This document shows positions 958 to 43,048 of a stretch of DNA of 44,247 nt, one piece after another. The translations under genes were made by a program, and so were the position numbers. Location of the stretch: positions 1 through 44,247 of the IMG/VR virus record IMGVR_UViG_3300020045_006119. One strand, given 5' to 3'. The notes under the pieces were generated by a model. The model saw only the letters and a list, made by a program, of their open reading frames with translations, was not told where the DNA came from and ran no database searches. Each line of letters starts with the position of its first letter. Within the stretch, counting starts at the first letter, position 1. The stretch comes from a virus (Duplodnaviria; Caudoviricetes).

Positions 958-1190
958 TGATATTTGAAGTAAACGACAGGGTTAAAAAAATAGGGGGCAG
1001 TTATGACCAACACGTTTACGGCACGATTAAAGCGCGGTGGTTAGCTGATGATGGCACTATGCGGTATTCGTTCAGGTTTGATTTTCCAGCGGGTATGATT
1101 CATGTTTTCGGTGGTTCGAATTTGGAGCTGATGACTAATAGTGATGAACGCAAAGCGGCTAAGATTAAATTATTTTTAGTCGAATTATAA
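957..1190 (+). CDS. Hypothetical protein, probable SH3-like fold
   Basis: F.V.DRVKK.GG.Y...G.I pattern; SD GGAG; coupled at both ends. Confidence 0.65.
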   Translation: MIFEVNDRVKKIGGSYDQHVYGTIKARWLADDGTMRYSFRFDFPAGMIHVFGGSNLELMTNSDERKAAKIKLFLVEL

Positions 1191-2924: not shown

Positions 2925-3000
2925 GCTACAATAGCACAATTGATAGTGCAGCCCACTTGTAATGGGCAGGTTGTTGGTTTGACTCCAACTTGTAGCACCA
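2925..3000 (+). tRNA. trnT: tRNA-Thr(UGU), 76 nt, encoded CCA
   Basis: Acceptor GCTACAA/TTGTAGC; D stem GCAC/GTGC; anticodon stem GCCCA/TGGGC with loop CTTGTAA; T stem GTTGG/CCAAC; A73 plus CCA. Confidence 0.92.
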
Positions 3001-6802: not shown

Positions 6803-7625
6803 ACGCAAAGACCCGCCTATGGTGCAGGGTAAAACCTTGCTTTATCCTGACGCGGTGGCGGCTAAGTTTTCCAAGCGTTTAGGCGCGTTAGTTGATGCAA
6901 TGACCCGCGAAACTGAGCGGGAAGTATTGGCACTGTTTACCAGTGAAACCGCTGAAAACGGTTACTTGCCAACACAAGACGCAAGCATTACCGCACAGGC
7001 GCGTATCTTGATTAATCGGCTACGGCGTAAGTATGTACGGATATTTAACCGCGACATTGAAAGCCTGATTACTCAAATGCTGAATAATACCAACCGAGCG
7101 AGTAAATCCAGCACAGCGCAAAGCCTTAAAGAGTTAAGCGGGGGATTGATGCTAAAAACTGACTTTCTCAGCGGTGAAATGAAAGAACAATTTCAGAGTT
7201 TGACGCAGGATAATGTGAGCCTGTTTAAGACCATACCCAGCACGTCATTCGATAAAGTAGAGGGCGCGGTGTATGACTCAATTACCAGTGGACAGGGGAT
7301 AAAAGACCTTAAGCCGTTTTTTGAGCAGTTTAGCAATGGCACAAAGAACTACGCCAAGCTACGCGCGTATGACCAGACCCGAAAAGCCTTTACCACGTTG
7401 AATATGGCGCGTTTACAGAAGAACGGAATCAAGCGTGTACAGTGGATTCATTCACATGGTAGCAATGATCCGCGCAAACTTCACCAAGAGTTAGACGGGC
7501 AGATATTTGATATTGATAAGCCCCCTGTAGTCGCTGTAATGTATGGCGTTGAGGTACGAGGGTTCGGGGGTGTTGCGATTAATTGCCGATGCACTGTAAA
7601 GCCTGTTTTTGATTTTACACAATGA
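6753..7625 (+). CDS. Head morphogenesis / minor capsid protein (SPP1 gp7 / Mu F-like)
   Basis: A.DQT.K, W.H.....PR..H..LDG.IF and INCRC motifs; follows portal. Confidence 0.88.
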   Translation: MPKKLPLTKTRQKWLSERKDPPMVQGKTLLYPDAVAAKFSKRLGALVDAMTRETEREVLALFTSETAENGYLPTQDASITAQARILINRLRRKYVRIFNRDIESLITQMLNNTNRASKSSTAQSLKELSGGLMLKTDFLSGEMKEQFQSLTQDNVSLFKTIPSTSFDKVEGAVYDSITSGQGIKDLKPFFEQFSNGTKNYAKLRAYDQTRKAFTTLNMARLQKNGIKRVQWIHSHGSNDPRKLHQELDGQIFDIDKPPVVAVMYGVEVRGFGGVAINCRCTVKPVFDFTQ

Positions 7626-8220
7626 ATTCGAATAAACTAATTTGGTTTTCGTGTTTTTTTAAGTTATTAGCAATGGCTCTTTTTTGGTTGGCAATAGCTA
7701 GGTTTTGTCTGTGTGTTTCAGAATGTGGCTTACCCTTCCTAGTCATTGACATTTTTTGTTTTGTTTCAATAGACGCTGTTAATCCTGTTTTTCTAATGCG
7801 AGATAATTCTCTTTGTTCTTTAGTCCAGACTCTATTTTTATTGGACTCGATTCTATTGATCCGTCTTTGTTCAAAATACGTACTATTTAATGTCGATTGC
7901 CTCATTTTTTCACGAGTCGCTAATGAAATAGTTTTATTCAGACCTCCCGTTGTTAAATTATATCCATGTGGGGCTAGTGTGTTGTGAATAAAAATATAAA
8001 ACTTTTCCCAGTCGTTTGCTTCGTCAACACTTATGTTTTCAATAAGTATTTCATGAGTAAAATTATCCCATCCATATTTTTTGATAGCCAAAGCAAAAGC
8101 CGAGCATTTTGTCCTATTGCTTTTATGCTCTATGTTACGTTTATAAAGGTTTTTAGTTTGCCCAATATAACTTTTACCACTTGGACTTGTGTGCTTATAA
8201 ACACAATATTGATTGTTCAT
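7615..8220 (-). CDS. Free-standing GIY-YIG homing endonuclease with NUMOD3-like repeats
   Basis: CVYKH...YIGQT..R..H...E...GYN catalytic pattern; ETKQKMS and HSETHR repeats; AT-rich; opposite strand to the late operon. Confidence 0.9.
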   Translation of the reverse strand: MNNQYCVYKHTSPSGKSYIGQTKNLYKRNIEHKSNRTKCSAFALAIKKYGWDNFTHEILIENISVDEANDWEKFYIFIHNTLAPHGYNLTTGGLNKTISLATREKMRQSTLNSTYFEQRRINRIESNKNRVWTKEQRELSRIRKTGLTASIETKQKMSMTRKGKPHSETHRQNLAIANQKRAIANNLKKHENQISLFEFIV

Positions 8221-8486: not shown

Positions 8487-8602
8487 TGTTATAATAAACT
8501 CAGTTTTTGAAGTACGCCGTAGCAGGACTTAATTCAAAAACTATGTTTTTACTTTGAACCCGTTCACGCTTTGACTGCTACTCAAAGTATTGCGGGTTTT
8601 TT
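8487..8602 (+). promoter_or_regulatory. Promoter plus kissing-loop attenuator leader (copy A)
   Basis: TGTTATAAT; hairpin with GTAGCAG (8519-8525); terminator hairpin with loop CTGCTAC (8575-8581) and T6. Confidence 0.65.
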
Positions 8603-8616
8603 GTTGGGAATTTGAA

Positions 8617-8799
8617 ATGAAAACAATTGTAATTGACGGTGTATCCGTTCTATTAGCCCCATTAAGCACTAATACCTTAATGTCATTAGCAGAAGTATTT
8701 CTTATTATGGCAAAAACTGGAGAATCCTCCGTAACAACAAAAATTAATATGCAGGCAATTTCTAATGAATTAGGAATAAGAGCGGTCGAACTATCATGA
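8617..8799 (+). CDS. Hypothetical protein (60 aa)
   Basis: ATG 8617 after GGGAA; ATGA overlap with the KilA-N gene. Confidence 0.6.
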   Translation: MKTIVIDGVSVLLAPLSTNTLMSLAEVFLIMAKTGESSVTTKINMQAISNELGIRAVELS

Positions 8800-9449
8800 A
8801 AAACTTACTTATTGGCGAGTTAAGTATTCGTTATTTTGAAGATGGTCTTTATCATCTTTCTGATGTCCATAAATTGAGTGGGCATGACCAAAAGCACCGA
8901 CCAAAGTATTGGTTAGATACTCAACACGCAAAAGAATATATTAATTTCTTAACACAATTATCATTTGAAAGCAAAGGCGGTATTCCGCCTTTGCGAGTTA
9001 TTAGAGGAACATCAAAAGCAGGAACTTATGCAAGTGAAGAGCTAGTTTTAACTTATGCAATGTGGTGCAGTGTAAAAACACACCACATAATGATAACCGC
9101 CATAAAAGAATTAAATTCAGCAACAACCACACAAGAATTAAACGACTTGAAATTTAAGTACGATAATTCAGTGCAAACAGACCTATTTACAAAGCACCAA
9201 CAGCCGCGTGATAAAAATACGCTTCAGGTTATTTTAGGCTTAACTCCATTTCAGGCTGAACAATTCCATAACGAATTAATTTGTGATGGTCTACTAGAGA
9301 AAATAGGCAGTAAGACAATCACACAGCGCATACTTGGCACGACACCGATTAATAAAATGGTCATTGGGCAGAAAGGCGATACATTATTATGGGATGCCGA
9401 AGCGTTGAAACAATACTTTGGCGATAAACAAACTGACTGGACAATTTAA
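8796..9449 (+). CDS. KilA-N domain DNA-binding protein (antirepressor-like), possible KilA-C/ANT-like C-terminus
   Basis: G.Y.LSD.HK.SG....HRP.YWL, IRG....GTY..EELV..YAMW.S motifs. Confidence 0.85.
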   Translation: MKNLLIGELSIRYFEDGLYHLSDVHKLSGHDQKHRPKYWLDTQHAKEYINFLTQLSFESKGGIPPLRVIRGTSKAGTYASEELVLTYAMWCSVKTHHIMITAIKELNSATTTQELNDLKFKYDNSVQTDLFTKHQQPRDKNTLQVILGLTPFQAEQFHNELICDGLLEKIGSKTITQRILGTTPINKMVIGQKGDTLLWDAEALKQYFGDKQTDWTI

Positions 9450-10079: not shown

Positions 10080-10184
10080 TATAATCGTGCATAGGGCTAG
10101 ACAAGGACTAATTACCCATGTTGAAAAGTGCCAATACCTGAGCATAGCCCAATTTTTACAGGTAATCTTAAAAAGGTAATTAAG
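10080..10184 (+). promoter_or_regulatory. -10 box plus structured leader RNA (three-way junction, anti-SD loop)
   Basis: TATAAT, then GGGC-TAG-...-GAAAA-GTGC(CAATACCTGA)GCAT-A-GCCC, then CAGGTA and AAGGTA before ATG 10185. Confidence 0.6.
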
Positions 10185-10763
10185 ATGGATTTATATAAAT
10201 TGAGTTTTCCCAATGGAAAATTGTACATTGGCATAACAAGCAAGACGGCAAGACAAAGGTTTAAAGAGCATTGTAACAATACAAAGTATCCCGTGAATCA
10301 CGCCATTAAGAAATACGGTAAAGAAAACGTAAAATTAACGGTACTGGCTACAGTTGATAATTGGGAATTACTGTATTTAGCAGAGCAGGAAGCAATTGAG
10401 AAATTCAATACTAAATCGCCTAATGGGTATAACTTAACCGATGGAGGAATAGGGGTATTAGGGAGAAAGCATTCAGAGGAATCAAAAAAGAAAATGTCTG
10501 AAAGCTCAAAAGGAATTTATCCATCACCAGAAACTAGAGCCAAGTTATCCGCTATACAAAAGAAAAGAATATTTACTGATGAACATAGAATGAAAATATC
10601 TAAGGCAAAAAAAGGAAAGCCTATTCATCAAAATACTATTGATGCTGTTATTTGGGCTCAAACAGGAAGAAAGCATTCAATAGAGCATAGGGAAAAAATA
10701 GCATTAGCCACTATCGGTAAAAAAAGAACTGTTGAGCAAAAAAGAGAAAAAGATGACGGCTAG
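10185..10763 (+). CDS. Free-standing GIY-YIG homing endonuclease with NUMOD3 repeats
   Basis: DLY...YIGIT...RF.EH...E...GYNLTDGG; HSEESKKKMS-type repeats; start placed at ATG 10185 after SD AAGGT. Confidence 0.9.
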   Translation: MDLYKLSFPNGKLYIGITSKTARQRFKEHCNNTKYPVNHAIKKYGKENVKLTVLATVDNWELLYLAEQEAIEKFNTKSPNGYNLTDGGIGVLGRKHSEESKKKMSESSKGIYPSPETRAKLSAIQKKRIFTDEHRMKISKAKKGKPIHQNTIDAVIWAQTGRKHSIEHREKIALATIGKKRTVEQKREKDDG

Positions 10764-36578: not shown

Positions 36579-36695
36579 TTGTGAACCTCCTTTTTTCTAA
36601 GTTCCCGTGTAGTTTAACAGGATGAATTAATAAATCAATAGTTTTTTATATTTTTATTTATGTTATTATGTGCGCTCACACAATGGAGAAAAGTA

Positions 36696-38969
36696 ATGAT
36701 TGAACTAAACGAAAAACAACAACAGGCAGTTGACTATATAGAGTCAGCAAGTTTTAAAAGTTTCTTTGGCATCTTTGGCGCGGGTGGCACGGGTAAGGCT
36801 CAACCGCTAGATGAGCTAGTCCTTACGCCAAAAGGTTTTGTAAATATGGGTAGCATAGAGAAAGGAGATTTTGTTATTTCAGAAAATGGTAATGCAATAA
36901 AAGTGCTAGATACTTTTAGTCATCAAAATCTTGAGATGTATGAAATAACTTTTTCTGATGGGGTAAATGTAAAATGCTGTAAAGACCATCTTTGGCAGGT
37001 TCAAACTAAAAAACTTAGGCTAAACAATAAGTTTAAAGTGATGGACACTACTAGCATGATTCCCTTTATCAACAAAGAAAAGAAAACGGATAAGGTAGGG
37101 CATTATTATTGTGTTCAGCTAAACAAGCCTGTTATTTTTTGCGAAAAAGAGCAAAAAATAAGCCCTTGGACGTTTGGGTACATTTTAGGAAATGGATGCA
37201 GTCAACATAATTCATTGGTTACATCAATCGGAAACAATGATATTGACTATGTGTTATCTATGTTTTCAGAAAATGAGATATTAAGCTCATCGGTCAAGAC
37301 TGATAATGTAGGAATTGTTGCATTGCAGTATGACCTTAGAAAGTATTATGAAAATAATTTAAAATTATCACGGGTTAAATCAGTTGATAAATGGATTCCA
37401 GAAAATTATTTAATGGGATCCATTGAACAGCGAAAAATGCTTTTAGCTGGATTGGTAGATAGTGATGGCTGTTGCACTAACAATAGAGCAAGATTTTCAA
37501 CATCTAGCGTAAAACTTGCGAATGATTTTTTATTTTTAGTGCGTTCTTTAGGCGGGAAAGCGAAGATAACAGCAAGTGACAGAGGAGGTCGATATATAAA
37601 TACAGAGTACAACATACAGTTTAGAACCCCTTTCAATCCGTTTTTAATGCCAAGAAAAGCAAACAATTACACAGTTCGAGCAAATGACATTAATGCTGTA
37701 AAGCATATTACCAGCATTAAAAAAATAGATGATATGGATGGAAAATGCTTATTAGTTGACTCAGATAGCCATTTGTATTTAACAAATGGCTTTACAGTAA
37801 CCCACAACACTACCGCTATCAAGTCAATCGGCAGCCGTTTCCGCGTGGCTTTTACCGCACCGACCAACAAAGCCGCAAAGGTAATGCGTGACAGTGGATG
37901 TCCAGTCGATGCAACGATGACCATTTATAGTTTTTTAGGGCTTACTGTCAATGAGGCTACTGGCAAGGTGACAATAGATAAAAAAGGACGCTGTAAATCT
38001 GGCGATTATGACGTTTTAATCGTTGATGAATGCAGTATGCTTAATGATGATATTTGCGACCGCTTGCGACAACTGGGACACATTAAGATAGTGTTAATGG
38101 GCGATCATGCACAGCTACCTCCACCGAAAGCAACACACAGCCCTATTTTTAAAATCATCGGCGATAATCACATCGTTTTAACCGAGCAAATGCGGCAGAA
38201 AAACGCGGAAAACCCTATCCATAAATTATTAACAGCTATGCGCACGGCGATAGATACAGACGACAGTAGCAGAATTAACTTTGCCGATTTTAAAGCGCAG
38301 GTTCGGGACGATGAAAAAGGGCTTAATGTTGGCGTAGTAACGGCAAACAACGGCAAACAATGGGAGAAATGGCTAATTAGTGCCTTTACTGACAAACGCG
38401 GTTTTGAAACGTTGGCAGTCGCGTACAGTAATAGACGCGTCGATGAAATTAACGCGCTGATCCATGCGAGTATTTATCCCAATTCAGAAACGTATTGCGT
38501 CGGGGAAAATTTAACGTTTCAGGCTGCAAAAAAGAGCGGAACTGGCATAGAGATTACGGCGCAAAACGGCGATGTTATAAAGGTAAAATCAGCAGTTAAG
38601 AAACAGGAGCTTGTGAAGATTGGAACTTATAAAGTTATGATTGAATCGTTGTTAATCAATGGTGAATATCTGACACCGTGTGACCGTAACCAATTTAATA
38701 ATTGGCTGGAAATGTTGAAAACAGACCTTAATAATCCGCGCGTAACGGCTGGGTATTCGTGGGGTGAATTGTATTTGTTGCGTGATAGGTTTGCTGATTT
38801 GCGTCATTCATATTGCTCTACTGTACATAAAGCACAGGGGTCAACAGTAGACAATGTTTTTGTAGATATGATTGACGTGTACAGAATGCCAGAACCGATT
38901 GATATTATAAACCGCTGTGTCTATACGGCACTATCGAGGGCTAAATATAACGCCATTATTTTGTCATAG
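36696..38969 (+). CDS. Dda/RecD-like superfamily 1B helicase interrupted by an intein
   Basis: GAGGTGK/TT Walker A split by the intein; APTNKAA, VDECSM, GD..QLPP, LTEQMRQ, TVHKAQGST and YTALSRA motifs. Confidence 0.92.
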   Translation: MIELNEKQQQAVDYIESASFKSFFGIFGAGGTGKAQPLDELVLTPKGFVNMGSIEKGDFVISENGNAIKVLDTFSHQNLEMYEITFSDGVNVKCCKDHLWQVQTKKLRLNNKFKVMDTTSMIPFINKEKKTDKVGHYYCVQLNKPVIFCEKEQKISPWTFGYILGNGCSQHNSLVTSIGNNDIDYVLSMFSENEILSSSVKTDNVGIVALQYDLRKYYENNLKLSRVKSVDKWIPENYLMGSIEQRKMLLAGLVDSDGCCTNNRARFSTSSVKLANDFLFLVRSLGGKAKITASDRGGRYINTEYNIQFRTPFNPFLMPRKANNYTVRANDINAVKHITSIKKIDDMDGKCLLVDSDSHLYLTNGFTVTHNTTAIKSIGSRFRVAFTAPTNKAAKVMRDSGCPVDATMTIYSFLGLTVNEATGKVTIDKKGRCKSGDYDVLIVDECSMLNDDICDRLRQLGHIKIVLMGDHAQLPPPKATHSPIFKIIGDNHIVLTEQMRQKNAENPIHKLLTAMRTAIDTDDSSRINFADFKAQVRDDEKGLNVGVVTANNGKQWEKWLISAFTDKRGFETLAVAYSNRRVDEINALIHASIYPNSETYCVGENLTFQAAKKSGTGIEITAQNGDVIKVKSAVKKQELVKIGTYKVMIESLLINGEYLTPCDRNQFNNWLEMLKTDLNNPRVTAGYSWGELYLLRDRFADLRHSYCSTVHKAQGSTVDNVFVDMIDVYRMPEPIDIINRCVYTALSRAKYNAIILS
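36798..37808 (+). mobile_element. Class 3 intein (337 aa) with LAGLIDADG endonuclease domain
   Basis: Starts AQP; block B HLW; block F Cys (GKCLLV); ends VTHN followed by +1 Thr; LAGLVDSDG motif. Confidence 0.9.
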
Positions 38970-38980
38970 TGCCATATAAT

Positions 38981-39048
38981 AAAAAACCCAGACAGCCACC
39001 ACGCTTATCTGGGTTTCATTTCCACTCAACTCAATAGAGATTTTAGCA
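38981..39048 (-). ncRNA. Putative antisense RNA over the primase translation-initiation region
   Basis: Minus-strand TGCTAAAAT (39048-39040), then terminator AAACCCAGA...TCTGGGTTTTTT (39016-38981). Confidence 0.45.
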
Positions 39049-41273
39049 TGAAATGCGCATTAGTACACAGTATTACATCACCAGACAATTTTAAGATAAT
39101 CAGCATCAATGAAGTTTTGAACGACATAAAAACGGAACGCTATAAAACAGTCATTGAAGCCTTGCCACCATCCAGCGACAAGAAAGCATACACGGAAGCA
39201 AAACGCCACTTGCCAAGCTGGGCATTAAATGGCGAGTTTGGCGGCAAGGTAATAAACAGCGGGTTCACAGAAAGCAACGGCTTATTCCACATCGACATTG
39301 ACGGACTAAGCGATCCGAAAGCGGTTAAATGGCAATTGGCACATGACATTCCAGAAATTTACGCATTGTGGCTTAGTCCATCAGGGAACGGGTTAAAAGG
39401 ACTGTTACGCATTCCAGACGATTTTATTCAAAACGACAGCGATTTTAAGAAAGCATTTGCTCAGATTGAAAAGTATCTCTCTGCCTATGATGTGACGATA
39501 GATAAAGCGTGTAAGGATGTGCGGCGTTTGTGTTTTGTCGGTTGCGATGCTGATATTTTTATCAATACGGATGTACCTGCTTTTATATTCGATACTGTCC
39601 AGTGGGATTTTAAGCCCGACATTCGCGCCCCGCTTTCCGTTAAAACTTCAATTAGCAATCATGCAGATAGATACATAGCACGCTGTTGTGATTTGATTCT
39701 AAACGCTGGACAGGGAAATTATCACAATAGCCGTCTTCGTGCGGGGAAACTGGCAGGCGGTTTTATTGCCGCTGGATTGATAAACGAGAATGAAGTAATG
39801 CAAGCGTTAAGCGATGCAAGCGATATTATCAGCTCACAGTGCGGCGATAATGAGCAAGTGATACAACGGGAACAAAAGACTATTTATGACGCGATACAGC
39901 ACGGCAAAGGGCTACCAGTTGAGCAGGAACAATATAGGCAGGTATCGGCTGGACAAACGGTGGCAGAGAGTAAGGTAGTCTATCCTGATTTTGAAGCACC
40001 ACGCGCAGCGACGGTGGAGGAAATAGAACAGCACGACTTTGATTATGAACCAGAACCACGCGCCACATTCGACAATCCAGCGTTACCAATTAAGCATTTA
40101 GCCGCTATTTGTGACTATATTAATGCGCCAATTTATTATTATTCGCCAAAAGCCACACAACATGCCGCAATAGCTTTTATCTGTCATGTTGTTAGCCGCC
40201 GTTTTGTCAGTGATGGCGGGGATAAATGCTCGTTGATGATAGGAAATGTGGGTTCATCGGTAAGTCAGTTGGCAGACATCAACAACAGCATTGAAGCATT
40301 ATTTTGTGAACTTGGCATGGATGAAGACATACGCCTAGACCGCATGACGCACATAGACCTAACTGCGCATTATGCTAATGAAGCGACATCGGGTAAATTG
40401 CTGTACTTACCGCCTGACCTTGGCGCAATGACACGCGCCAGCCAAAAGCAGACCTCAATGGCTATGGATGGTTTCCTATCTGAGATTATGCAATTCCATG
40501 ATAAAGAGCGGCACACGTTCAGAACCGCAAAGGCACGGGTTAAAGTCGATAATCCATGTATTAACCTTTATGCCAATTTTGACGATACCGACCTGTTTAC
40601 ATTCGGCAAAACGTCAAACAATGACGGGCTGTTTAATCTGTTTTTGACCCAACAGAATGACAGCAAGGATTTTATATTCAATGCAAAAAAACATAAGCCG
40701 CTAACTAATACTGATGGATTTACAGGTTTGCGCGATCACATCAATAAATTAACCGACAAGTCAGCAAGTCTATTGCCAGCGGTAAAAACGCCTAACGCTA
40801 ATGCCGCCACAGTTGTTCCGTGGTCGATTAATCCGACTAGTTACGCGGACAAGCTAAAAAACGCCGCTGGGAGCGGTAAAGCGTGCGGGCGGGTAATGCG
40901 TCAGTTTGTGAACTTGGCGACCGTGGTGGCGGCATGGAACGGCGAAAATGCGGTAACTGAGTCGTTAGCTAATCTTTGCTGTGAGTATGTGTGTCATAGA
41001 GTAAGCGAGATGCAGGAAGCCATTAAAAAACGCGCCACAGATGATATTGCGCCTGATGTTATGAGTCGGGTGCTGTCTGTGATTCATCGGGCTGGGATTG
41101 ATGGTATTTTCGAATCAAGGCTAATGCAGTCATGCGCAGGGTTTAAGCGTTTAAACGATACGGAACGCGACGACATGATACGGTCGCTACTGAAAAATAA
41201 AGAGATTACTGTGACAGACCGCACGAAAGATAAGGGTGCGGGTAAAAAGGGGCGTAAGTTTTTCATTCGATGA
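39048..41273 (+). CDS. Primase (VirE-N/BT4734-like AEP) fused to a DUF3987-like domain and a C-terminal putative winged helix
   Basis: HIDID, SPSGNGLK and D.ACKD..RLCF motifs; V.NP...L motif in the C-terminal half. Confidence 0.82.
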   Translation: MKCALVHSITSPDNFKIISINEVLNDIKTERYKTVIEALPPSSDKKAYTEAKRHLPSWALNGEFGGKVINSGFTESNGLFHIDIDGLSDPKAVKWQLAHDIPEIYALWLSPSGNGLKGLLRIPDDFIQNDSDFKKAFAQIEKYLSAYDVTIDKACKDVRRLCFVGCDADIFINTDVPAFIFDTVQWDFKPDIRAPLSVKTSISNHADRYIARCCDLILNAGQGNYHNSRLRAGKLAGGFIAAGLINENEVMQALSDASDIISSQCGDNEQVIQREQKTIYDAIQHGKGLPVEQEQYRQVSAGQTVAESKVVYPDFEAPRAATVEEIEQHDFDYEPEPRATFDNPALPIKHLAAICDYINAPIYYYSPKATQHAAIAFICHVVSRRFVSDGGDKCSLMIGNVGSSVSQLADINNSIEALFCELGMDEDIRLDRMTHIDLTAHYANEATSGKLLYLPPDLGAMTRASQKQTSMAMDGFLSEIMQFHDKERHTFRTAKARVKVDNPCINLYANFDDTDLFTFGKTSNNDGLFNLFLTQQNDSKDFIFNAKKHKPLTNTDGFTGLRDHINKLTDKSASLLPAVKTPNANAATVVPWSINPTSYADKLKNAAGSGKACGRVMRQFVNLATVVAAWNGENAVTESLANLCCEYVCHRVSEMQEAIKKRATDDIAPDVMSRVLSVIHRAGIDGIFESRLMQSCAGFKRLNDTERDDMIRSLLKNKEITVTDRTKDKGAGKKGRKFFIR

Positions 41274-41283
41274 TGCCGTTTAG

Positions 41284-41395
41284 TGTTATAATGTACCCGT
41301 CTTAAAAATACGGCGGACGAGGTCACATTTTTAAGGCATAAAACCTTAGCCCGTGCTATTTGCGTACTCGTCCTACGCAGATACACGGGTTTTTT
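41284..41395 (+). promoter_or_regulatory. Promoter plus kissing-loop attenuator leader (copy B)
   Basis: TGTTATAAT; hairpin with GGACGAG (41315-41321); terminator hairpin with loop CTCGTCC (41367-41373) and T6. Confidence 0.68.
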
Positions 41396-41416
41396 ATTGC
41401 TTAAAGGAAATTTAAA

Positions 41417-41956
41417 ATGAACAACTTAGTAACAGTGAACAATGGTGTGGCATCAACAAATAGTCTTTTGATAGCTGAATTGTTTGATAGACCTCATGAC
41501 AATGTTCTAAAGTCGCTTGATAAATTAAGCACTGCCGTAGGATTTAACGCCAGTGCTTATATTGATAACTCAGGAAAACCGAATAGAATGTATGTCTTAA
41601 CAGAAAGACAGGCATTAATAGCGATGCCGTTTATCGGAGGGCTGAAATCAATTGATGGTCAAATAATGCTTGTAGATGCTTTTTTGACGTTGAGAGACGT
41701 TCAGCAAGACAAACCGCGTGTAATATCAAGCAATACAGGCAATACACTTGCTGATATTGCCGAAATAACACATTCGGCAATTGCATCATTTGGTGATTCA
41801 GGATGTACTATGGACGACCTTATATTTTCGTTTGATATTTTCAGAAAACAAACAAAGTCAAATAGAGAATTAATTATAAATCAATTGCTTAAGTCACAAA
41901 AAATCAGAAGAAATGGTAATTATGGCAACAGTTTAATGTTTGCTTTCATCGGTTAA
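41417..41956 (+). CDS. rha: Rha-family regulatory protein with a primase-like C-terminal domain
   Basis: SL.IAE.F...H.NVL....F....Y.D..GK...MY.LT Rha motif; SD AAGGA. Confidence 0.85.
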   Translation: MNNLVTVNNGVASTNSLLIAELFDRPHDNVLKSLDKLSTAVGFNASAYIDNSGKPNRMYVLTERQALIAMPFIGGLKSIDGQIMLVDAFLTLRDVQQDKPRVISSNTGNTLADIAEITHSAIASFGDSGCTMDDLIFSFDIFRKQTKSNRELIINQLLKSQKIRRNGNYGNSLMFAFIG

Positions 41957-41970
41957 TTTCCATTCGATAG

Positions 41971-41999
41971 TTGACACCATGCGCACGGACGCGCATAAT
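41971..41999 (+). promoter_or_regulatory. Sigma70 promoter pointing into the putative origin
   Basis: TTGACA-17-CATAAT. Confidence 0.65.
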
Positions 42000-42686: not shown

Positions 42687-42730
42687 ATATAATTTAACAG
42701 CGCAAGGACGCGCAATAACTGGAGAATCAC

Positions 42731-43048
42731 ATGAACAAAATCACAGAATTAGAAGCAGACTTTGGCGTGATACGCGCCACACGTCAAAAAGTAGTTACAG
42801 CAATCCCTTACCCTTTCGAGCCAGAATCATGCGGATTTTCAATCTGTCCGTTTTTTGAATTGGCTTATGAGTACCCTACATTTACAATGAGCGTTTATGC
42901 GGATTATGGAGTAATACCCGCGCCACGCTGGGCAATGTTTGAAGTGATTGACGGCAAGTGGTTTGTGCTGGAAACAGGCGACTATGCGCAGCGTGTTGAT
43001 GAGATGTTGAACGTACTGATTAGTGTGTTTGGTGGCGAACGTGGCTAA
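42731..43048 (+). CDS. Hypothetical protein
   Basis: SD GGAG. Confidence 0.7.
   Translation: MNKITELEADFGVIRATRQKVVTAIPYPFEPESCGFSICPFFELAYEYPTFTMSVYADYGVIPAPRWAMFEVIDGKWFVLETGDYAQRVDEMLNVLISVFGGERG

What the first reader, a model, noticed from the sequence alone, without database searches (positions are those of the whole stretch)
41076..41956. Rha protein carries a diverged copy of the primase C-terminal domain and sits between primase and origin: candidate RNA-gated replication control system
Seen: primase residues at 41076-41207 (SVIHRAGIDGIFESRLMQSCAGFKRLNDTERDDMIRSLLKNKEI) align without gaps to Rha residues at 41774-41905 (SAIASFGDSGCTMDDLIFSFDIFRKQTKSNRELIINQLLKSQKI). I count 13 identities in 44, with the hydrophobic pattern kept. 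Gene order is primase, attenuated leader, Rha fusion, iteron array. Established: the P4 alpha primase-helicase binds its origin through a C-terminal winged helix, and Rha proteins can block phage growth in IHF-deficient hosts. Inference: the fusion is an origin-binding mimic that competes with or assists the initiator at an IHF-rich origin, released only on read-through of the kissing-loop terminator.
Basis: partly seen in the sequence, partly recalled or inferred. Interest (0 to 1): 0.8.

Follow-up and report, generated by a model that had tools for sequence, protein, structure and literature searches.

The report
Rha regulator with borrowed primase tail
In this phage an optional 697-base cassette between the primase gene and a likely replication origin encodes an Rha-family protein whose tail is a distant relative of the primase's own predicted DNA-binding winged helix; related Rha proteins carry such primase-type tails from at least two separate sources, but a role in controlling replication is untested.

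Summary
The homology is real; the 'replication control system' is not shown. The 13/44 match exists but is not significant pairwise. Profiles confirm it in the same register, and the tail's nearest predicted structures belong to DUF3987/Prim-Pol proteins. Of 121 Rha relatives, 15 carry primase-type tails, from two primase subtypes; one origin for all is rejected. But leader plus Rha is a 697-bp cassette between 8-bp repeats, absent from three close relatives with nearly the same primase and origin. The tail is only 25% identical to its own primase tail and is not a recent copy, while a 53%-identical primase goes with another iteron. The kissing-loop terminator looks real (7-mer pair covaries), but the same leader type precedes a KilA-N cassette and unrelated genes. 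Best reading: a mobile regulator cassette with an old captured initiator winged helix; origin mimicry stays possible. No earlier scan finding of this was returned.

The parts
39048..41273 (+). Primase, 741 aa: BT4734-like (AEP-family) N-terminal domain, middle region aligning weakly with a DUF3987 protein, C-terminal winged helix
   Evidence: PF08800 E 8.8e-14; phrog_18375 primase/helicase; L003 relative hits DUF3987; alignment
41040..41270 (+). Primase C-terminal domain (res. 665-741), predicted winged helix, likely iteron-binding
   Evidence: low-confidence model shows the same helix/strand order; origin binding inferred
41264..41271 (+). Left 8-bp direct repeat (primase last codons and stop) bounding the cassette
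   Evidence: D14; joint 41263 to 41961, 8 letters fit both sides
41264..41960 (+). Optional 697-bp leader+Rha cassette
   Evidence: absent in L001 and in contigs of runs X2 and X3
41284..41292 (+). Extended -10 promoter-like motif TGnTATAAT (own promoter, predicted)
   Evidence: sequence; not listed by the promoter scan, which needs a -35; same motif heads the KilA-N leader
41299..41337 (+). Leader hairpin presenting the 7-nt site GGACGAG (41315-41321) in its loop
41350..41398 (+). Predicted intrinsic terminator; loop CTCGTCC (41367-41373) complementary to the upstream site
   Evidence: z -4.6; covarying variants; scan
41417..41956 (+). Rha-family gene, 179 aa; Rha domain res. 14-93
   Evidence: PF09669 E 6e-10
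41741..41953 (+). Rha C-terminal winged helix of primase-tail type (res. 109-179)
41961..41968 (+). Right 8-bp direct repeat
41971..41999 (+). Near-consensus sigma-70 promoter (11 of 12), shared with L001 and L002
42025..42327 (.). Likely origin: 7 GAATTTAC copies in both orientations, 4 IHF-consensus matches, A+T-rich
   Evidence: origin function inferred
8487..8605 (+). Second leader of the same layout (site GTAGCAG 8519-8525, terminator loop CTGCTAC 8575-8581) upstream of a KilA-N gene at 8796-9449

Best explanation
The region is an optional 697-base cassette at the primase stop codon that encodes an Rha protein ending in a primase-type winged helix, and it likely works as an accessory, attenuator-controlled DNA-binding regulator rather than as part of this phage's replication machinery. 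Shown: cassette limits, absence in close relatives, homology of the tail, the paired 7-mers. Inferred: Rha cassettes that lodge at primase 3' ends have more than once fused to the primase's last domain; this tail was captured long ago in the lineage shared with P0011/P0019-P0023 and came here ready-made by recombination at an 8-bp match. Inferred: transcription starts at the cassette's own extended -10 motif, mostly stops at the terminator, and pairing of the upstream 7-mer with the terminator loop tunes read-through. Inferred: the protein binds DNA with both domains, the tail selecting sites other than this phage's GAATTTAC iterons.
For: Empty site with the same primase (93%) and origin (415 of 438 bases) in L001 and an exact 697-bp skip in contigs of 2 of 4 runs, from two studies. 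No Rha-domain match in three related records, which are only 39-56% complete. Tail is 25% identical to its own primase tail but 41-49% to three other Rha tails; L002's primase tail is 53% identical and sits before a different repeat with no GAATTTAC. Grouping the tail with its own primase is rejected. Last 22 residues hold 4 K/R against 8 in the primase. Rha gene G+C 0.35, third-position 0.29, against 0.45 and 0.44 for the primase. Same leader type before non-replication genes. Rha tails vary widely among 27 aligned clade members.
Against: The cassette sits exactly between primase and origin, and one short contig in run X1 shows a related leader after another primase end. At least 15 of 121 Rha relatives carry primase-type tails, some 40-42% identical to a primase tail right to the C-terminus, and among P0011/P0019/P0020/P0022 the tail is about as conserved as the Rha domain (72-95% vs 68-96%): repeated capture plus conservation fits selection for origin-related binding as well. 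Iteron switching rests on one clear comparison (L002). No target site was identified, and the DNA context of the other fusions could not be read.
Confidence: 0.5

Rival explanations
1. Cnr-like damper of the phage's own replication: the fusion competes for iterons or pairs with the primase winged helix and lowers initiation when read-through occurs; optional, as a modifier.
For: Position between primase and origin; homology; P4 cnr controls copy number (PMC8628076 passages); P4 replication genes are held off by RNA-controlled termination (PMC4825925 passages); IHF-consensus matches in the origin.
Against: Cassette absent with unchanged primase and origin; tail far more diverged than a primase tail that already goes with another iteron; leader type not specific to replication; IHF-consensus matches are equally present in L001, which lacks Rha (4 and 4).
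Confidence: 0.2
2. Interference module: the tail recognises the iterons of a different, competing phage of this group and blocks its origin on co-infection; the variety of tails is a library of origin specificities.
For: Origins in this group are modular, with different repeats after different primase tails; Rha tails match two primase subtypes; Rha proteins are reported to block phage growth in IHF-deficient hosts (PMC4936722 passages).
Against: No primase with a tail close to this Rha's was found (nearest 33%); no cognate iteron identified; no functional data.
Confidence: 0.17
3. Relic: the tail is a by-product of recombination at primase ends and is decaying in this copy.
For: Long end branch (1.2-1.3); tail less conserved than the Rha domain against relatives (38-47% vs 62-68%); third-position G+C 0.23; shortened, less basic wing.
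Against: Frame open; complete winged helix predicted at pLDDT in the 80s over residues 111-160; tail conserved among relatives.
Confidence: 0.13

Closest known systems
Rha family (PF09669; phi80 Rha, P22 Orf201) with variable C-terminal domains
   Same: N-terminal Rha domain above the Pfam cut-off; varied tails.
   Different: Tail is a primase-type winged helix with no significant Pfam or PHROG match. Domain shuffling in Rha/Bro-N/KilA-N proteins is recalled; that paper was not held.
DUF3987 (MCM-like) primase-helicases with C-terminal winged helix
   Same: PMC4889955 passages describe AEP-fused DUF3987 proteins ending in a winged helix; L003 relative hits DUF3987; Atlas neighbours of the Rha tail are such proteins.
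   Different: The window primase has no DUF3987 hit and, by eye, lacks the Walker A lysine and Walker B acids seen in L003.
Phage P4 alpha origin-binding domain and Cnr
   Same: Winged-helix origin binding by alpha; cnr controls copy number; a winged-helix partner of the initiator (title of PMID 11929537 seen in reference lists; details recalled).
   Different: P4 alpha is DnaG/SF3; cnr family is in 90% of P4-like elements whereas this cassette is optional; Cnr is not an Rha fusion (recalled).
C4 / P4 CI / IsrK antirepressor leaders
   Same: Promoter, hairpin, short pairing site and terminator ahead of an antirepressor-like gene; termination controlled by short RNA-RNA pairing.
   Different: No C4 RNA here: Rfam finds C4 before Rha in L141 but nothing in the window's leaders; the complement lies in the terminator loop itself.

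Membership tests
Rha (PF09669) | N-terminal Rha domain above gathering score | tested here: met
   40 bits vs 29.9
Rha (PF09669) | Growth inhibition in IHF-deficient hosts | not testable with these tools
   bench phenotype; for the literature statement
DUF3987-type primase C-terminal winged helix (Rha tail) | Profile homology to primase tails | tested here: met
DUF3987-type primase C-terminal winged helix (Rha tail) | Winged-helix fold | tested here: met
   predicted only: AF2 model, Atlas TM 0.84 and 0.82, PDB winged-helix hits such as Rpc34 at weak E-values
DUF3987-type primase C-terminal winged helix (Rha tail) | Binds the adjacent iterons | not testable with these tools
   needs EMSA
P4 alpha/Cnr replication control | DnaG primase plus SF3 helicase initiator | tested here: not met
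   PF08800 only; no D5 or Toprim hit
P4 alpha/Cnr replication control | Regulator conserved with the replicon | tested here: not met
   absent in L001, X2, X3
P4 alpha/Cnr replication control | Regulator-initiator winged-helix heterodimer | not testable with these tools
   needs a bench binding assay
C4 antisense RNA (RF01695) leader | C4 RNA match | tested here: not met
   window none; positive control L141 63.3 bits
C4/CI-like attenuator (works like) | Short variable pairing site plus terminator before a regulator gene | tested here: met
   (structure predicted, termination not measured)

The most novel reading that the evidence does not exclude
A clade of phage Rha proteins has repeatedly taken over the origin-recognition winged helix of phage primases and uses it as a swappable address label: mobile anti-initiator cassettes that dock on own or rival origins, each switched by an undescribed kissing-loop terminator whose 7-base code differs from cassette to cassette.
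Probability: 0.25. Interest if true: 0.75.

Novelty: new variant of a known kind. Interest (0 to 1): 0.47.

Why it matters
Rha proteins are common in phages and their mechanism is poorly known. A set whose tails come from origin-binding domains of known neighbours gives a direct handle: tail, primase and iteron can be swapped and tested. It would also show initiator DNA-binding domains being reused as regulators or as weapons between phages. The paired-loop terminator is a candidate new RNA motif with a variable 7-base code.

Tried and rejected
Pairwise protein and DNA alignment of the two tails: not significant alone. Word search with the tail found only itself; phmmer over 1.84 billion representatives found one true relative, P0011, and one repeat-protein artefact. 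Loci for other fusions: none found in viral or genome contigs (tails checked in 111 sources) or GenBank phages; 29 of 401 Methylococcales genomes had Rha-domain matches, whose tails I did not test separately. Host not established. Leader homologues by DNA pattern: chance hits or none, so no covariance model was built. Among 35 of 87 Rha upstream regions with a terminator, only the window's had a 7-nt loop complement. AF2 model of the primase was unusable (pLDDT 37.5), so no superposition of my own models; the wide fold search was never run. Complex prediction of primase tail with Rha tail: no answer, score 0.00, neither support nor evidence against. Likeness of P0029-P0031 tails to VapE-type helicase ends is recalled and was not confirmed. 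No RNA holder listed. GC skew follows gene direction and does not mark the origin.

Full report
Setting. The window is most of a tailed phage genome with a contractile-tail module. The replication block holds an SF2 helicase, a Sak4-like protein, a Dda-like helicase and a 741-aa primase with a BT4734-like domain, a family classed among AEP primases (PMC5862659 passages). The Rha gene follows at 41417-41956 (PF09669), then an A+T-rich repeat region.

Observation. The 13/44 match is there but scores only 39 and is invisible to BLASTP. An HMM from 11 primase tails picks the Rha tail as best non-primase frame of 543 and beats 5000 shuffles. The reverse test works: a profile of 27 Rha-clade proteins hits the primase C-terminus in 3 of 3 related records (E 3.5e-7 to 1.7e-4). 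Profile-profile comparison reproduces the register. The AF2 model has three main helices and a two-strand wing at residues 111-177, and the two nearest Atlas models are DUF3987 and Prim-Pol clusters (TM 0.84, 0.82). DUF3987 proteins are described as MCM-like helicases ending in a winged helix (PMC4889955 passages). The homology is therefore accepted.

Of 121 Rha sequences tested (118 further hits from the 120 listed of 155, plus P0001, P0011 and its near-twin P0013), 13 match the window-type primase tail at E below 0.001 and 2 more match the different tail of the L003 primase. P0028 is 40% identical to the window primase over the last 72 residues (E 7e-15); P0045 is 42% identical to the L003 primase end (E 8e-16). 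A tree of 22 tails rejects one clade for the 10 Rha tails (AU p 0.0001; 78 columns, long branches, group tested after I had seen the tree); without the L003 type the rejection is marginal (p 0.038). So there were at least two exchanges between primase ends and Rha genes; the direction, primase to Rha, is inferred. Equal contig lengths hint that P0020 and P0026 share a contig with primase P0003, and P0022 with primase fragment P0017; this is inference from lengths only.

The cassette is optional. L001 has a 93% identical primase and 415 of 438 identical bases in the origin region, yet runs from the primase stop straight into the origin. Contigs in runs X2 and X3 skip exactly 41264-41960, with 8 letters fitting both sides. 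L002 and L003 also have no Rha gene there. Insertion is more likely than three precise deletions, given the lower G+C, but is not proven. The replicon of these relatives evidently lacks the cassette.

Specificity. L002's primase tail is 53% identical to the window's and is followed by ten copies of another repeat and no GAATTTAC; L003 has a third arrangement. This fits the tail reading the iteron, on few examples. The Rha tail is 25% identical to its own primase tail, groups with P0011/P0020/P0022, cannot be placed with its own primase and has a shorter, less basic wing; winged helices contact DNA through the recognition helix and wing (PMC2777425 passages). Binding to the adjacent iterons is therefore doubtful. 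IHF-consensus matches (motif recalled) number 4 in the window, 4 in L001, 0 in L002 and 2 in L003, so they do not track Rha.

The leader. It folds well (z -4.6, 0 of 200 shuffles) into a hairpin with GGACGAG in its loop and a terminator with CTCGTCC in its loop; both 7-mers are predicted unpaired, and the terminator also forms in transcripts coming from the primase. Contigs in four runs from two studies, probably one phage, carry a variant reading GTAGGAA and TTCCTAC, three compensatory changes; a second variant in X1 looks compensated too but is read less surely from the difference tables. The same layout occurs at 3 of 80 terminators in the window and three related records, against 1 hit among 613 in 160 other loci; re-pairing loops and upstream regions reaches 3 in 65 of 20000 runs (the scan was designed on one of the three). 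The other two precede a KilA-N cassette and small hypothetical genes in G003, each with its own 7-mer. Rfam has no match, while it finds C4 before an Rha gene in L141. The pairing is likely real and works like C4/CI leaders (PMC4825925 passages), but it is a general accessory-gene leader. Whether pairing promotes or prevents termination is open.

Mechanism and odds. Most likely (0.5) a mobile, attenuated Rha regulator with an old captured winged helix acting at sites other than this origin; Cnr-like damping of the own origin 0.2; interference with rival origins 0.17; decaying relic 0.13.

Literature. Seen as passages: PMC4889955, PMC5862659, PMC8628076, PMC4936722, PMC4825925, PMC2777425, PMC2864571 (motif table only). 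PMID 11929537 was seen only as a title in reference lists; the domain-shuffling paper was not held. Searches for Rha fused to a primase winged helix or for a kissing-loop Rha leader listed nothing describing either; the library lacks most subscription papers and I read no supplements, so an earlier mention cannot be excluded.

Verdict. A real, apparently undescribed domain fusion with a recurring evolutionary pattern and a candidate new RNA motif, on an optional cassette; the replication-control claim is possible but unsupported.

Noticed in passing
window 8487-9449 (+): KilA-N gene cassette among head genes, with a leader of the same paired-loop terminator type and a different 7-mer; flanked by two homing-endonuclease genes (7618-8220 -, 10128-10763 +).
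   Followed up: partly
L175 about 985-1150 (-), record G003: Third paired-loop terminator leader (GGTGCAA / TTGCACC) before small hypothetical genes after a large ORF.
   Followed up: partly
window 40200-40480; L003 5340-6575: Window-type primases appear to have lost Walker A and B residues present in the L003 DUF3987 primase that shares the same N-terminal half; possibly an inactivated helicase beside a separate Dda-like helicase (by eye).
   Followed up: partly
window 36660-38969: Dda-like helicase carries a LAGLIDADG-containing insert, likely an intein, absent in L002 and L003 (769 aa vs 418 and 417 aa).
   Followed up: partly
L002 5266-5745; L003 6575-7040: Origin repeats are exchanged together with the primase C-terminal part between conserved flanks (promoter upstream in L002, A+T-rich block downstream).
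   Followed up: partly
P0004: Same primase C-terminal half fused to a Toprim primase domain instead of the BT4734-like domain.
   Followed up: no
L141 1210-1440: Canonical C4 RNA leader before an Rha gene in a Methylococcales genome.
   Followed up: yes
window 38970-39020: Hairpin between helicase and primase genes, with a U-rich run on the opposite strand.
   Followed up: no
window 41981-41995 and 42700-42714: 15-nt direct repeat, one copy inside the promoter spacer before the origin, the other ahead of the ORF at 42731.
   Followed up: no
window 2925-2997 (+): tRNA gene between endolysin and terminase.
   Followed up: no
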